Below, piece after piece: positions 16,624-33,487 of a stretch of DNA of 64,000 nt (positions are counted from its first letter, which is position 1; each line of letters begins with the position of its first letter). This stretch comes from an uncultured Microthrixaceae bacterium (lineage in GTDB: Bacteria > Actinomycetota > Acidimicrobiia > Acidimicrobiales > DATDAH01). The notes below the pieces were generated by a model. It had not been told where the DNA came from. It saw only the letters and a list, made by a program, of their open reading frames with translations, and did not search any database. The stretch spans positions 36,632 through 100,631 of the forward strand of contig CAZWMT010000015.1 in assembly GCA_964635055.1 (NCBI GenBank), in the 5' to 3' direction. A program made the translations under genes and the position numbers.

Positions 16624-17867
16624 CCGAACGACCCGAGGCGGCGCCGGATGTCCCCGACGACCATGCTGCGCTCGTCGCCGAGGTGGAATCGTTCCTCCGG
16701 GCCACGCTGCCCGCCCAGTGGGTGGCGGCGGTCGACGCCGATGACCTCGAGGCGCTCGGGGTGGAGCGCCGTCGGGTCGACCCCGACGAGGTGTGGCGCG
16801 CCGTCGCCGGCCAGGGGTATGCCGTGCCGACCTGGCCGAAGGAGTACGGCGGCCTCGACCTGTCCCCCAAGGCCGCGGGCGCGGTCGCCCGGACGCTGCG
16901 GCGCTACCGGCTGCCCCGCTTCAACAACCCCGTCGGCGTCGATCTCGTCGGTCCGGCCATCCTGCGCTGGGGCACCGACGAGCAGAAGCAGCGGTTCCTC
17001 CAGCCGCTGGCGAGCTACCAGGAGATCTGGTGCCAGCTGTTCTCCGAGCCGGGCTCGGGTTCCGACCTCGCCGGGCTGTCCACCCGGGCCGTGCGTGACG
17101 GCGACACCTGGATCATCCGCGGCCAGAAGGTGTGGACCAGCCTCGGTGACATCTCCGCGCACGGCATCCTGCTGGCCCGCAGTGACCCGGACGTGCCCAA
17201 GCACAAGGGCATCACCGCCTTCCTCCTGCCGATGGCCCTGCCGGGCGTCACGGTGCGGCCGCTTCGCCAGCTGACCGGCGACGCCGAGTTCTGCGAGGTC
17301 TTCCTGGACGACGTGGAGGTCGACGACTCCCTGCGCCTCGGCCCCGTCGACGAGGGCTGGCGGGTGGCCATCTCGGTCCTGATGAACGAGCGCCAGACCT
17401 TCGCCGCCGGCGACGCCTCGCTACCCGGCACGGTGACCGGCCGCTCGGTGGCGGGGATGATCCAGCGCCACGCGCCGGTGGCCGATCCGGGGCTACGTGA
17501 GCGCCTCGTGCGGGCCTACATCGAGGACCGGGTCATCACCATGACGAAGGAGCGGGCGGCCGCCCGCCGCCGGGCCGGGCAGCCCGCGGGCCCGGAGGCG
17601 TCGATCACCAAGCTCTTCTTCAGCGAGCACACCCAGCGCCTGCAGAACCTGGCCGTCGACCTCGAGGGCCCCTCCGCCCAGGCGTGGGAGGACGGCGACC
17701 GGTGGATGCAGAACACGGCCTGGTCGTTCCTGCGCATCCGGTCGAAGACCATCGCCGGCGGGACCTCCGAGGTGCAGCGCAACATCCTCGGCGAGCGGGT
17801 CCTCGGGCTGCCGAAGGAGATCGAGGTCGACCGCGACGTCCCCTGGTCGGACGTCCCCCACTCGTGA
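16620..17867 (+). CDS. Acyl-CoA dehydrogenase
   Basis: GTGA overlap with the crotonase stop. WCQLFSEPGSGSDLAGLSTRA, GQKVWTSL, GGTSEVQRNILGERVLGLP. Confidence 0.9.
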   Translation: MTERPEAAPDVPDDHAALVAEVESFLRATLPAQWVAAVDADDLEALGVERRRVDPDEVWRAVAGQGYAVPTWPKEYGGLDLSPKAAGAVARTLRRYRLPRFNNPVGVDLVGPAILRWGTDEQKQRFLQPLASYQEIWCQLFSEPGSGSDLAGLSTRAVRDGDTWIIRGQKVWTSLGDISAHGILLARSDPDVPKHKGITAFLLPMALPGVTVRPLRQLTGDAEFCEVFLDDVEVDDSLRLGPVDEGWRVAISVLMNERQTFAAGDASLPGTVTGRSVAGMIQRHAPVADPGLRERLVRAYIEDRVITMTKERAAARRRAGQPAGPEASITKLFFSEHTQRLQNLAVDLEGPSAQAWEDGDRWMQNTAWSFLRIRSKTIAGGTSEVQRNILGERVLGLPKEIEVDRDVPWSDVPHS

Positions 17868-19450
17868 TGGCGGACGACGCCGGCCCGACGAGCCTGCTCG
17901 ACATCGCCGTGCAGCGCGCCAGTCGTGATGCGTCCGCCCCACTGCTGATCACGCTCGACGACGGTCCGCCCCACGACGTCCACGTCCTGACCTACGCCGA
18001 CGTGCTCGGCCGGGCGGAGGCGCTGGCGGTCGAGTTGGCCGCCGCCGGGGTCGTCCCGGGCGACCGGGTCGGGTGCTACCTGTCGAACTCGCCGAGCTGG
18101 GTCGTGGCCTCGCTCGCGGTCTGGATGAACGGCGCCGCGGTGGCGGCCGCGGGCACCCTGCTGCCCTCGAACGAGGCCGCCACCCTGTTCGACATGGCGG
18201 GCGTGTCGGTCGTGGTGGCGGTCGCTGATGCCCCGGGACTACCGGACCGGTTCTCGGTGCTGGCCGTCGACGAAGGTGGTGAGATCAGCGGTTCTGGCTC
18301 CCGATTCGACCGCCCTGGCGTGCAGATCGGGAGCCAGAACGGGGGATCCTTGCCCGCCGCAGAGGACGTAGCGGTCGCCATCTTCACCTCAGGCACGACC
18401 GGCCGGCCGAAGGGCATCACCCACACCCACGGTGACATCGTGGCCGCGGCGCGGCGGGTGGCCGCCGCCTACGCCCGCACCAGCGACTACCGGCCCGATC
18501 CGGCGCCGCCCGACCGCCCGCCCGGCGTGCTGTTCAACCCGTTCGGCCACATGGCCGGCTACAGCCGCCTGGCCTTCCGGATGTGGACGGGGCGGGCCCT
18601 GGTGATCGTGTCCCGCTTCAGCGTCGCGGCGACGAAGGCGCTGCTGGCCCGGTACCCGCTGGACACACTGCAGCTCACCCCGACGATGATCCACATGCTG
18701 GCCACCGCCGACGAGGACGTCGACCTCCGCTCAGTGAAGTACGTGACCTCGGGGACGGCGCCGCTCTCCATCGCCACCCGTGAGCGCTTCGAGGCTCGGT
18801 TCGCCGTCCCCGTGATGCAGGCGTACGGCATGACCGAGATCGGCGCGGTGGCCCAGGAGCGCTTCGACGACGTCGTTGCCGGCCGGCGGGGTCCCGGCTC
18901 GGTGGGCCGGCTGGCCGCGGGGGTCGAGGTCCGCTTCCGCACTCTCGACGACGGCGACGGCGACGGGGGGTTCGATCCCCACCGACCCGAGGGCGAGGGC
19001 GAGATCCTGGTGCGGACCGACGAGGCGTCGGACGAGTTCATCGGCGGCGCGCCGGTCCCCGTCGACGAGGAGGGTTGGTTCGCCACCGGTGACGTCGGCC
19101 GCCTGGAGGACGGGATCCTCTACATCACCGGCCGGGTCCAGGAGAAGATCATCGTCGGCGGGTTCAACGTGTACCCGGCCGAGGTCGAGGATGCGCTCCG
19201 CCGTTCACCGCTGGTGCTCGACGCCGTCGTGGTGGGCGTCCCCGACGACCGCCTCGGCGAGCGGCCGGTGGCCGGGGTCGTGTGGGCGGGCCCGCCCGAT
19301 CCCGACGCCCTGACCGCAGCCGCGCGCGGCGAGCTCGCCGCCTACAAGGTGCCGCGGGCCTACTTCCCTCTGGATGCCGTCCCCCTCACCCCGAGGGACA
19401 AGGTCGATCGTCGTCGGGCAGCGGCGCTCGCCGCCGAGTCCGTGCACTGA
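17867..19450 (+). CDS. AMP-dependent acyl-CoA synthetase/ligase
   Basis: TSGTTGRPKGITHTH, YGMTEIG, GWFATGDVG, and YKVPR near the C-terminus. The start overlaps the upstream stop (TGATG). Confidence 0.9.
   Translation: MADDAGPTSLLDIAVQRASRDASAPLLITLDDGPPHDVHVLTYADVLGRAEALAVELAAAGVVPGDRVGCYLSNSPSWVVASLAVWMNGAAVAAAGTLLPSNEAATLFDMAGVSVVVAVADAPGLPDRFSVLAVDEGGEISGSGSRFDRPGVQIGSQNGGSLPAAEDVAVAIFTSGTTGRPKGITHTHGDIVAAARRVAAAYARTSDYRPDPAPPDRPPGVLFNPFGHMAGYSRLAFRMWTGRALVIVSRFSVAATKALLARYPLDTLQLTPTMIHMLATADEDVDLRSVKYVTSGTAPLSIATRERFEARFAVPVMQAYGMTEIGAVAQERFDDVVAGRRGPGSVGRLAAGVEVRFRTLDDGDGDGGFDPHRPEGEGEILVRTDEASDEFIGGAPVPVDEEGWFATGDVGRLEDGILYITGRVQEKIIVGGFNVYPAEVEDALRRSPLVLDAVVVGVPDDRLGERPVAGVVWAGPPDPDALTAAARGELAAYKVPRAYFPLDAVPLTPRDKVDRRRAAALAAESVH
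18291..18340. repeat. Hairpin repeat family, copy 1 (inside the acyl-CoA synthetase CDS, in frame)
   Basis: GTTCTGGCTCCCGAT (18291-18305) pairs with ATCGGGAGCCAGAAC (18326-18340). The arms are identical to the intergenic copies at 28.5 and 33.4 kb. It encodes ...GSGSRFDRPGVQIGSQNG... Confidence 0.75.
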
Positions 19451-19461
19451 GAGGACACCCC

Positions 19462-20691
19462 ATGGCGTGGCAACCGATGAAGGGCGTGAAGGTCGTCGAG
19501 GTGGCGCAATTCACCTTCACGCCGTCGGCGGGGGCGGTGCTCGCCGACTGGGGCGCGGACGTCGTCAAGGTCGAGCACGCCGAGCGGGGTGACGCCCAGC
19601 GCGGGCTGACCATCGGCGCCGGCGGCGTCGGGGCGGGGTCGTTCCAACCGCTGATGGAGCACCCCAACCGGGGCAAGCGCAGCATCGGCCTGACCCTCGA
19701 CGTGCCGAGCGGCTATGAGGTGCTGGCCGAGCTCGTCAAGGACGCCGACGTGTTCCTGACCAACTTCCTGCCTTCGGCGCGGGAGAAGCTGCGCATCGAG
19801 GTGGACGACATCCGGGCCATCAACCCCGACATCGTCTACGTGCGGGGGAGCGGCCACGGCCAGCGTGGGCCCGAGGCCGATCGCCCGGGCTACGACGGGT
19901 CGACGTTCTGGTCTCGCATGGGCTGCGGATGGGGCGTGACCCCGCCGGACAGCAAGCGGATGTTCGGCCAGCCCTCCGGTGCCTTCGGCGACTCGATGGG
20001 CGGGGCCGTGATGGCCGGCGGCGTCGCGGCCGCCCTGTTGGCCCGCGACCGCACCGGCGAGACCTCGGTGGTCGACGTGTCGTTGATGAGCGTCGGCGCC
20101 TGGGCGATGGCCCTGTGGTTGGGGACGGCGCTGCTGACCGGCGAGGCCACCCCGCCGCCGTCGTTGGACGCCCCACCCAACCTGGGCGTGAACCCGATGA
20201 TCGGCAGCTACCGCACCTCCGACGGGCGCTTCATCACCCTGATGATGGTGCAGCCCGGGCGTTACTTCTCCGACCTCTGCGCCCACCTGGGCCTCGAGCA
20301 CCTGCTGGCGGACGAGCGCTTCCAGGAGGCCCGGGGCCTCATGGAGCACGCCGACGAGATCGGCGTCCACATCGCCGAGGCAGTGGCCACCAAGGACTTC
20401 GCCTACTGGCGGGAGCACCTCCAGACCCTGGAGGGGCCCTGGGCGCCGGCGCAGAACCCGGTCGAGGTGGCGAACGACCCCCAGCTCATCGCCAACGGCT
20501 GCCTGGTCGACATCGTCGATGCCGACGGCACCCCTCGCACCCTCGTCGCCAACCCCGTCCAGTTCGACGAGACCCCGCCCGACCTCACCCGGGGCCCCAC
20601 CTTCGCCGAGCACACCGACGACATCCTGCGCGAGCTCGGCAAGAGCGAGGACGAGATCATCCAGCTCAAGCTCGACGGCGCCTGCACCTAG
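19462..20691 (+). CDS. Family III CoA-transferase (single domain)
   Basis: VKVVEVAQFTFTPSAGAVLADWGADVVKVEH, and a GAFGDSMGG segment resembling the catalytic-Asp loop of formyl-CoA transferase. Confidence 0.9.
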   Translation: MAWQPMKGVKVVEVAQFTFTPSAGAVLADWGADVVKVEHAERGDAQRGLTIGAGGVGAGSFQPLMEHPNRGKRSIGLTLDVPSGYEVLAELVKDADVFLTNFLPSAREKLRIEVDDIRAINPDIVYVRGSGHGQRGPEADRPGYDGSTFWSRMGCGWGVTPPDSKRMFGQPSGAFGDSMGGAVMAGGVAAALLARDRTGETSVVDVSLMSVGAWAMALWLGTALLTGEATPPPSLDAPPNLGVNPMIGSYRTSDGRFITLMMVQPGRYFSDLCAHLGLEHLLADERFQEARGLMEHADEIGVHIAEAVATKDFAYWREHLQTLEGPWAPAQNPVEVANDPQLIANGCLVDIVDADGTPRTLVANPVQFDETPPDLTRGPTFAEHTDDILRELGKSEDEIIQLKLDGACT

Positions 20692-28478: not shown

Positions 28479-28529
28479 GTTTCTGGCTCCCGATTCGATC
28501 GCCACCACGGTCGAATCGGGAGCCAGAAC
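28479..28529. repeat. Hairpin repeat family, copy 2 (intergenic)
   Basis: TTCTGGCTCCCGATTCGA (28481-98), loop TCGCCACCACGG, then TCGAATCGGGAGCCAGAA (28511-28). It lies 42 nt after the PrpD-1 stop and 48 nt before the LeuC-like start. Confidence 0.85.
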
Positions 28530-33437: not shown

Positions 33438-33487
33438 GTTCTGGCTCCCGTTTCGATCGCCCGAGCGGTCGAAACGGGAGCCAGAAC
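33438..33487. repeat. Hairpin repeat family, copy 3 (intergenic)
   Basis: GTTCTGGCTCCCGTTTCGA, loop TCGCCCGAGCGG, then TCGAAACGGGAGCCAGAAC. Relative to copy 2, an A-T pair in the stem is swapped to T-A on both arms. Confidence 0.85.

What the first reader, a model, noticed from the sequence alone, without database searches (positions are those of the whole stretch)
18291..18340. One hairpin-repeat copy sits in frame inside the acyl-CoA synthetase gene
Copy 1 has 15-bp perfect arms, GTTCTGGCTCCCGAT / ATCGGGAGCCAGAAC. It lies within CDS 17867-19450 and is translated as ...EISGSGSRFDRPGVQIGSQNGGSLP.... This is about 12 residues upstream of the TSGTTGRPKG AMP-binding motif, a region that is normally a variable surface linker.

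The reading frame stays open. This resembles the in-frame palindromic element insertions known from Rickettsia (RPEs) and some mycobacterial repeats, which are rarely reported for this kind of genome.
Basis: partly seen in the sequence, partly recalled or inferred. Interest (0 to 1): 0.6.

Follow-up and report, generated by a model that had tools for sequence, protein, structure and literature searches.

The report
Palindromic repeat translated inside synthetase gene
A 50-base hairpin-forming repeat, scattered through the genomes of one group of actinobacteria, has landed in frame in a floppy surface loop of a working acyl-CoA synthetase gene; other genes in related genomes carry it the same way, so this is a new example of a known kind of harmless "selfish DNA inside a protein".

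Summary
Window 18291-18340 is a 50-bp palindrome with perfect 15-bp arms. It is one of three copies in the window and one of at least 41 copies found in nine Microthrixaceae/Acidimicrobiales genomes.

It lies in frame in CDS 17867-19450, an ANL-family acyl-CoA synthetase, and encodes residues 142-158 (GSGSRFDRPGVQIGSQN). These residues fall in a linker whose length varies in all 118 repeat-free orthologs (12-27 aa). That linker is also the main low-confidence stretch of the AlphaFold model.

A 90%-identical ortholog carries a decayed copy at the same site. Orthologs at 78% identity or less have none, so the copy is a lineage-specific acquisition. The gene is not a pseudogene (dN/dS 0.15).

It is not a clean 17-residue insertion. 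The linker is only 3-6 residues longer than in the nearest repeat-free orthologs, so the element replaced linker sequence or arrived together with a deletion.

The same family is also translated in RecD (a clean ~17-aa insert in an inter-domain linker) and in the RibD C-terminal tail. An M20 peptidase reading frame also runs through a copy. The Rickettsia-like reading therefore holds at family level.

How the element spreads is unknown. I found no target-site duplication, no RAYT-type transposase near any copy and no Rfam family.

The parts
18291..18340 (.). Copy 1 of the 50-bp palindromic repeat. It is in frame in the synthetase CDS and encodes residues 142-158, GSGSRFDRPGVQIGSQN. The outer 15-bp arms are perfect; the inner stem has 4 mismatches.
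   Evidence: Hairpin energy is -34.1 kcal/mol, against -40.5 and -45.2 for the two intergenic copies in the window.
17867..19450 (+). Acyl-CoA synthetase / AMP-acid ligase (ANL superfamily), 527 aa, intact and under purifying selection.
   Evidence: Pfam PF00501 and PF13193 are precomputed for the identical protein P0001. The closest solved structure is M. tuberculosis FadD13, 3R44, E = 6e-41. dN/dS is 0.147. The flanking genes are conserved: an acyl-CoA dehydrogenase upstream (L038, L040, L041) and a family III CoA-transferase downstream (L038, L040).
18281..18352 (+). Hypervariable linker, residues 139-162, between invariant G138 and invariant P163. It hosts the element.
   Evidence: Alignments give 12-27 residues in the 118 repeat-free orthologs. 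pLDDT is below 50 for residues 143-159, and the model shows coil over 135-167.
18386..18415 (+). AMP-binding P-loop motif TSGTTGRPKG (residues 174-183), 15 residues downstream of the element.
   Evidence: Read from the sequence. The residues are invariant in alignment A2.
28480..28529 (.). Copy 2. Intergenic: 43 nt after the stop of a PrpD/MmgE-family gene and 48 nt before an aconitase-family gene on the same strand.
33438..33487 (.). Copy 3. Intergenic: 35 nt after the stop of an amidohydrolase gene. It has a compensated A-to-T / T-to-A change in the arms.

Best explanation
The feature is one copy of a dispersed 50-bp palindromic repeat family found in Microthrixaceae/Acidimicrobiales genomes.

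Its outer arms, (G)TTCTGGCTCCCG / CGGGAGCCAGAA(C), are conserved. The inner stem of about 10 bp differs between subfamilies but is always self-complementary.

Most copies sit a few to about 45 nt downstream of stop codons. The element has no stop codon in most reading frames, and it encodes short peptides rich in Gly, Ser, Ala and Pro. This allows a copy that lands in a disordered linker to be read through without destroying the protein.

Here a copy became fixed in the variable loop that precedes the P-loop of an acyl-CoA synthetase. This happened in the common ancestor of the window organism and its 90%-identical relative. The copy replaced most of the older linker.

Since then the enzyme has stayed under purifying selection, while the element-encoded peptide appears to drift and the hairpin decays. 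I read it as a tolerated passenger, not a functional module.

Shown: the copy's identity with the repeat family, the open frame, its absence from more distant orthologs, its loop location, the selection on the gene, and the recurrence of translated copies in other genes. Inferred: the direction of the event (gain, by parsimony), the accompanying loss of linker sequence, and neutrality. Unknown: the enzyme and mechanism that spread or homogenise the copies.
For: - Family and structure. Three copies lie in the window. Thirty-eight exact-arm copies lie in 37 loci from 8 GTDB representative genomes, all Microthrixaceae or Acidimicrobiales/Acidimicrobiia. Ten inner base pairs change on both sides, in 128 cells against 47.5 +/- 5.7 in shuffles (0 of 500 reached the observed value) and at most 44 in the slid controls.
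- Position. By my own GC-frame gene calls, 23 of 41 copies lie 4-45 nt past a stop codon and 6 of 41 are read through by a CDS.
- Gain in this lineage. The 90% ortholog L038 has the same copy with the same degraded inner right arm plus two outer-arm mismatches. L040 and L041 (about 78% amino-acid identity) and the other 116 repeat-free orthologs lack it.
- Tolerated location. The linker is 12-27 aa long in repeat-free orthologs, and pLDDT is below 50 for residues 143-159.
- Working gene. dN/dS is 0.147 for the whole gene and about 1 for the 17 element codons, though on very few sites.
- Recurrence. RecD in L009 carries a copy between the RecD_N and AAA_30 domains, and 78%-identical orthologs show a clean gap of about 17 aa there. 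The RibD reading frame runs through a copy to a TGATG overlap with the next gene (its product begins MFTGIVEELG, riboflavin-synthase-like) in three genomes.
- Open frames. All 42 copies tested are open in at least 3 of 6 frames, and 21 are open in all 6.
Against: - The net length change in the synthetase is only +3 to +6 residues rather than +17, so a simple insertion does not explain it.
- No target-site duplication was found.
- No RAYT-like gene lies within about 4 kb of any copy, although the search was of low sensitivity. No parent insertion sequence was identified. Mobility is therefore inferred only from the distribution: 28 of 41 sites are not shared between genomes.
- The right arm is 100% identical between the window and the 90% ortholog at dS 0.36. 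This could hint at constraint, but only about 2 synonymous changes were expected there.
- Copies at shared sites persist across species. That fits function or active homogenisation as well as it fits neutrality.
Confidence: 0.8

Rival explanations
1. The hairpin is kept inside the CDS because it does something at RNA or DNA level. It could be an mRNA processing or stabilising site within the operon, a translational pause before the P-loop, or a binding site for a factor that recognises the conserved arms.
For: The outer arms are conserved across eight or more species, and copies persist at orthologous sites. Intergenic copies sit where REP-type mRNA stabilisers sit, just 3' of genes. The right arm of the CDS copy is unchanged between the window and L038. 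The hairpin is still strong at -34 kcal/mol.
Against: The inner stem of the CDS copy has 4 mismatches. The copy in L038 has 6, including two in the outer arm, and its energy falls to -26.8 kcal/mol. The element codons evolve at dN/dS of about 1. G-U versus A-C mismatches show no bias toward the transcribed strand. There is no T-run and no terminator-like site. No Rfam family matches. None of the 118 other orthologs has any hairpin here.
Confidence: 0.1
2. The palindrome was copied into the linker by a mechanism other than transposition. Short-patch gene conversion or template switching from another genomic copy would overwrite linker DNA rather than add 50 bp.
For: The net length change is only +9 to +18 nt and no target-site duplication exists. 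Copies at the same orthologous site in different genomes carry different, fully compensated inner stems, usually the type dominant in their own genome. Examples are ribD, RecD and the 3' end of sucA. This needs conversion-like homogenisation or replacement. All six differences between the window and L038 lie in the left half or loop, and there the window still matches the family consensus.
Against: RecD shows a clean gain of about 17 codons relative to empty-site orthologs, which looks like a plain insertion. The synthetase linker of repeat-free orthologs shows no homology that could seed conversion.
Confidence: 0.25
3. The similarity is coincidental, and the peptide segment is native to this enzyme family.
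For: The linker exists in every ortholog, and its length here (24) is within the family range.
Against: The 15-bp arms are identical to those of the other copies, and no shuffle out of 100 gave as many hits. The covariance model scores the copy at 70 bits, E = 1e-22. No other ortholog has the peptide or the palindrome.
Confidence: 0.01
4. The gene is a decaying pseudogene, or the palindrome is an assembly artefact.
For: None beyond the presence of a strong hairpin inside a CDS.
Against: The ORF is intact and keeps every invariant family residue. dN/dS is 0.147. The AlphaFold model has mean pLDDT 82.6. The sequence is identical in an independent Logan assembly, and the element is present in two further assemblies of the 90% relative.
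Confidence: 0.02

Closest known systems
Rickettsia palindromic elements (RPEs)
   Same: Both are dispersed palindromic repeats found between genes and also in frame inside functional, unrelated protein-coding genes, where they add a peptide at a tolerant position. This is described in the review PMC10969869. In this family the hosts are the synthetase, RecD and the RibD tail, and an M20 peptidase reading frame also runs through a copy.
   Different: RPEs are about 100-150 bp and occur in Rickettsia (PMC10969869); that they are AT-rich and encode roughly 35-50 residues is from my own knowledge. This element is 50 bp (17 residues), about 65% G+C, actinobacterial and almost a perfect hairpin. There is no sequence similarity.
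REP / REPIN elements mobilised by RAYT transposases
   Same: Both are short hairpin-forming repeats that lie mostly just outside genes. In both, two conserved inverted end sequences are separated by a spacer that varies between copies but still forms a hairpin. Both show genome-specific variants and long vertical persistence (PMC3337134). Gene conversion has long been proposed for REP homogenisation (Higgins 1988, cited in that paper).
   Different: The arms are not themselves palindromic REP units, and they begin GTTC rather than the GTAG/GTGG-type head (the head motif is from my own knowledge). Copy number is 2-10 exact-arm copies per genome assembly, against hundreds for REPINs. No RAYT-like ORF lies near any copy. 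REPs are extragenic by definition.
Bacterial MITEs (Correia, ERIC, BOX, Chunjie and others)
   Same: Both have terminal inverted repeats, give stable stem-loop transcripts, lie mostly in intergenic or 3'-UTR positions, and occasionally form in-frame fusions with host ORFs (PMC10969869).
   Different: No target-site duplication was found, there is no non-palindromic core, and no parent IS was identified. At 50 bp it is at the extreme small end, and it is GC-rich rather than AT-rich.
Mycobacterial interspersed repetitive units (MIRUs)
   Same: Both are actinobacterial. MIRUs are short elements inside operons whose small ORFs overlap the flanking genes, which preserves translational coupling (from my own knowledge; Supply et al. 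1997). The ribD copy here behaves in the same way.
   Different: MIRUs are direct tandem repeats of 40-100 bp, not palindromes. There is no sequence similarity.

Membership tests
ANL superfamily acyl-CoA synthetase (host gene) | AMP-binding and AMP-binding_C domains with the P-loop motif T-S-G-T-T-G-x-P-K-G. | tested here: met
   PF00501 and PF13193 are recorded for the identical protein P0001. TSGTTGRPKG lies at residues 174-183. FadD13 (3R44) matches at E = 6e-41 over residues 34-513.
Rickettsia palindromic elements | Sequence membership in one of the RPE families (about 100-150 bp, found in Rickettsia). | tested here: not met
   The element is 50 bp and GC-rich, and it was found only in Microthrixaceae/Acidimicrobiales genomes. 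The resemblance is in behaviour only.
Rickettsia palindromic elements | In-frame presence in several unrelated functional genes at tolerant positions. | tested here: met
   The synthetase loop, the RecD inter-domain linker and the RibD C-terminal tail.
REP / REPIN-RAYT | A RAYT (Y1 HUH transposase) gene in the genome, typically flanked by the repeats. | tested here: inconclusive
   tblastn with E. coli RayT against 392 kb (the window plus all loci centred on copies) gave nothing below E = 0.4. This was a single-sequence search across phyla, and whole genomes were not available.
REP / REPIN-RAYT | High copy number (tens to hundreds) and a strictly extragenic location. | tested here: not met
   Each representative genome has 2-10 exact-arm copies, and a few degenerate copies were added by the covariance model. 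Six of 41 copies are translated.
REP / REPIN-RAYT | Conserved inverted end sequences with a variable spacer that still forms a hairpin. | tested here: met
   The caveat is that my search pattern fixed the outer arms. L046 shows that the arms can also change, with compensation.
MITE | Target-site duplication flanking the terminal inverted repeats. | tested here: not met
   No offset or k-mer length from 2 to 6 exceeded the permuted flanks. The only flank signal is G-rich sequence running outward from both ends.
MITE | A parent insertion sequence with the same terminal repeats. | not testable with these tools
No transposase was seen next to any copy. The one gene bracketed by two copies is an AbiEi_4/DUF559 gene at a single syntenic locus.
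Intrinsic (Rho-independent) terminator | A GC-rich hairpin followed by a T-run. | tested here: not met
   No terminator-like site lies in 17800-19500. The sequences 3' of the three window copies are CGGGGGATCC, CGACCGCCGT and CGGATCGGTT.
Any Rfam RNA family | A score at or above the family's gathering threshold. | tested here: not met
   The whole window gave no hits. The permissive search on copy 3 gave only generic miRNA-hairpin hits at 33 bits or less, against thresholds of 50-142.

The most novel reading that the evidence does not exclude
The family may not be a passive mini-transposon. It may instead be maintained by an arm-specific recombination or gene-conversion activity that swaps the inner stem like a cassette at fixed chromosomal sites.

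This would explain why copies at the same orthologous site (the ribD tail, the RecD linker, the 3' end of sucA) keep identical outer arms but carry each genome's own fully compensated inner stem.

A candidate for the enzyme is the AbiEi_4 + DUF559 (PD-(D/E)xK-like) gene that is bracketed by two copies downstream of sucA. That layout resembles a RAYT gene flanked by REPs.
Probability: 0.1. Interest if true: 0.7.

Novelty: new member of a known kind. Interest (0 to 1): 0.42.

Why it matters
- It extends the known case of a palindromic repeat read through inside a working protein, best known from Rickettsia, to a high-GC, free-living actinobacterial lineage. Many of the source samples are activated-sludge or environmental metagenomes. 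I found no description of such a repeat family in this lineage.
- It has a practical use. The 17-residue peptides (VLAPD...SGART, GSGSR...IGSQN) mark tolerated insertion points in RecD, RibD and an ANL synthetase. They can also mislead alignments and annotation.
- The pattern of conserved arms with an exchangeable inner stem at orthologous sites offers a small, tractable case for studying concerted evolution of dispersed repeats.

Tried and rejected
- Clean-insertion model for the synthetase. Rejected: the linker is only 3-6 aa longer than in the nearest empty orthologs and within the family range.
- Target-site duplications. None was found at any offset or length.
- RNA-level selection, tested by strand bias of G-U versus A-C mismatches relative to the direction of transcription. 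No bias appeared, on a small sample.
- Known RNA families. None matched.
- Intrinsic terminator. No T-run is present.
- Phage or viral origin. The pattern had 0 hits in the viral contig collection.
- RAYT near the copies. No tblastn hit appeared.
- Association with an AbiEi_4/DUF559 nuclease-like gene. It looked promising: the gene is bracketed by two copies in L017 and by a full downstream copy plus a truncated upstream one in L029, and a copy also lies upstream in L047 and L048. However, all four loci have sucA upstream, so this is one ancestral locus and not independent evidence.
- Census of proteins carrying element-encoded peptides, using a concatenated 66-aa peptide query. The word index returned only 2 candidates, so this was uninformative and used the last protein search.
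- Degenerate copies in the window. The full covariance-model scan found only the three known copies.
- Literature string search for the arm sequence. It returned only unrelated primers and probes, including a Thauera 16S probe.

Full report
**Observation.** Window 18291-18340 is a 50-bp palindrome. Its 15-nt arms, GTTCTGGCTCCCGAT and ATCGGGAGCCAGAAC, are exact reverse complements. The same arms recur at 28480-28529 and 33438-33487. That gives six arm hits at up to 2 mismatches against 0.22 expected, and no shuffle out of 100 reached six. All three copies fold into long hairpins, with z-scores from -5.1 to -9.8 for the 70-nt regions on either strand. A covariance model built from the family, run with filters off, finds only these three copies in the 64-kb window.

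The copy lies in the open frame 17867-19450. The start ATG overlaps the stop of the upstream acyl-CoA dehydrogenase gene (TGATG). The 527-aa product is identical to a publicly predicted protein with AMP-binding and AMP-binding_C domains. The element spans codon 142 position 2 to codon 158 position 3 and reads GSGSRFDRPGVQIGSQN. The P-loop motif TSGTTGRPKG begins 15 residues later. An independent Logan assembly is base-identical across the gene, so the palindrome is not an artefact.

**Comparison with orthologs.** Among 120 close homologs, all from Acidimicrobiales-type metagenome bins where a source gives a name, only P0001 (identical) and P0002 (90% identity) carry the element-encoded peptide. 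The DNA of P0002 (L038) has the palindrome at the same codons, but decayed. Its left arm is GTCCTGGCTCTCGAT, with two mismatches. It shares with the window the same degraded inner right arm, GTGCAGAT, where the family consensus is GGTCGAAT. The copy was therefore already present, and already imperfect, in the common ancestor of the two. The next closest orthologs, at about 78% identity (L040, L041), have no trace of it, either by alignment or by covariance model.

The segment between invariant G138 and invariant P163 varies in sequence and length in every ortholog. In the 118 repeat-free proteins its mean length is 18.9 residues (sd 2.5, range 12-27). The window has 24, and six repeat-free proteins have 24 or more. 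Against L040 and L041 the net gain is only 9 and 18 nt, although the element contributes 50 nt. Only three linker residues (GGS) lie between the element and the conserved LP. A pure insertion would imply an ancestral linker shorter than any observed. The event therefore replaced linker DNA or came with a deletion.

**The gene works and the site is tolerant.** Window against L038 gives dN/dS = 0.147 for the whole gene (dS 0.36). For the 17 element codons dN/dS is about 1, although this rests on only 6 differences. The AlphaFold2 model has mean pLDDT 82.6. Only two internal segments fall below 50. One is residues 143-159, which is the element-encoded stretch. The other is 363-368, a second insert specific to this lineage. 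The model assigns no secondary structure between residues 135 and 167. The closest solved relative is M. tuberculosis FadD13 (3R44).

**What the repeat is.** A scan of one genome per species for the paired arms found 38 copies in 37 loci. All come from eight Microthrixaceae, Acidimicrobiales or Acidimicrobiia MAGs, with 2-10 copies per genome. The viral collection gave none. My search pattern fixed the outer 12 nt. The inner part of the element was not constrained, yet it is self-complementary in every copy, and its sequence differs between subfamilies. Examples are ATTCGACCGCC, ATTGGACCGCC, ATTTCGGTGCC, ATCCTCCGG and GATCTCTACC. Ten base pairs change on both sides, in 128 cells against 47.5 +/- 5.7 in shuffles (0 of 500 reached the observed value) and at most 44 when partners are slid. 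Copies found through protein homology (L046-L048) show that the arms can vary too. L046 has the compensated pair CTGGCACCGG / CCGGTGCCAG, and L046-L048 share a ...CCAGTTC end variant.

Using my own crude GC-frame gene calls, 23 of 41 copies lie 4-45 nt downstream of a stop codon. Twenty-eight of 41 sites are not shared among the nine genomes, and five sites are shared. I found no target-site duplication. The only flank signal is G-rich sequence running outward from both ends. There is no T-run or terminator-like site and no Rfam family match. G-U versus A-C mismatches show no bias toward the transcribed strand. No RAYT-like ORF lies near any copy, although that search had low sensitivity. Literature searches found no description of this family.

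**Translated copies recur.**
- RecD. In L009 the reading frame passes through a copy (VLAPDLPAIAVQSGART) that lies between the RecD_N and AAA_30 domains. NCBI calls this a full-length 623-aa protein. Its 78%-identical orthologs are 607-608 aa and show a clean gap at exactly that point. Other RecD lineages carry VLAPD...SGA[RS][TS] peptides from other subfamilies in the same linker.
- RibD. In three genomes the RibD frame runs through a copy placed after the RibD_C domain. It ends at a TGATG overlap with the start of the next gene, whose product begins MFTGIVEELG (riboflavin-synthase-like). The frame is kept even where an extra 18 nt are present.
- M20 peptidase. In L029 this ORF reads through a copy and continues for 119 more codons.
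- Open frames. All 42 copies tested are open in at least three of six frames, and half are open in all six.

For RecD the clean 17-residue prediction is met.

**Interpretation.** The best-supported account is that the element is a small REP/MITE-like palindromic repeat. It accumulates just 3' of genes and is occasionally fixed in frame in disordered linkers. In the synthetase it is a tolerated passenger acquired before the window/P0002 split, and it is now decaying. The hairpin energy is -34.1 kcal/mol here and -26.8 in L038, against -40.5 to -46 for most other copies.

A functional hairpin inside the CDS is not excluded, but it is disfavoured by the stem decay and by the apparently neutral evolution of the encoded peptide. 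How copies spread is unresolved. Copies at the same orthologous site in different genomes keep the arms but carry different, fully compensated inner stems, usually their own genome's dominant type. That needs gene conversion, cassette-like replacement or repeated insertion at the same site. A conversion-like origin would also fit the near-neutral length change in the synthetase.

An AbiEi_4/DUF559 nuclease-like gene is bracketed by two copies in L017 and, with a truncated upstream copy, in L029. This resembles a RAYT gene flanked by REPs. However, all four examples of the gene share sucA upstream, so they count as a single locus.

**Comparison and verdict.** In behaviour the element matches Rickettsia palindromic elements and intragenic MITEs, for which in-frame fusions are documented (PMC10969869). 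In architecture (conserved inverted ends around a variable hairpin spacer) it resembles REPINs (PMC3337134). It fails the membership tests for RPE (sequence, size, host), MITE (no target-site duplication) and REP (copy number, extragenic location, no RAYT found).

It is a previously undescribed member of a known kind.

Noticed in passing
window 18947-18976: The same synthetase gene has a second insert specific to this lineage, at residues ~361-370 (GDGDGGFDPH). It is built partly from GACGGC repeats and is present only in the window and its 90% relative (P0022 has a shorter GDG). pLDDT is below 50 for residues 363-368.
   Followed up: partly
L002 2280-2327, L012 3676-3723, L028 5311-5358; L009 2349-2396, L044 834-883, L046 909-958: Copies at the same orthologous site (the ribD 3' tail and the RecD linker) in different genomes have identical outer arms but different, fully compensated inner stems that match each genome's dominant subfamily. 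This implies concerted evolution or replacement of the inner stem.
   Followed up: partly
L017 1920-2989; L029 3918-4962; L047 1244-2282; L048 648-1686: A gene encoding an AbiEi_4 + DUF559/MTES_1575 (restriction-endonuclease-like) protein lies downstream of sucA. An element copy or remnant sits 57-125 nt upstream of its start in all four loci, and a second copy sits at its 3' end in L017 and L029. The upstream copy in L029 is truncated and the L017 gene has a frameshift. All four loci are one syntenic locus.
   Followed up: yes
L029 2066-4327: An M20 peptidase ORF has no stop codon before the element. It reads through the element and continues for 119 more codons, antisense to the neighbouring DUF559 gene. 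The element may have removed or shifted the original stop.
   Followed up: partly
flanks of all 42 exact-arm copies (for example window 18283-18290 and 18341-18348): Sequence running outward from both ends of the element is G-rich, so the top strand is C-rich on the 5' side and G-rich on the 3' side. The first outward base is C in 61 of 84 ends and G in 22, and it is never G at both ends of one copy. L046-L048 carry a variant that ends ...CCAGTTC, which gives a direct GTTC repeat at both ends.
   Followed up: partly
L016 5010-5069, L035 1623-1682, L037 3621-3680, L019 3078-3138, L013 1234-1355, L006 2822-2881: The covariance model detected further degenerate or variant copies (17-41 bits) near canonical copies. 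The family is therefore larger than the exact-arm census shows.
   Followed up: no
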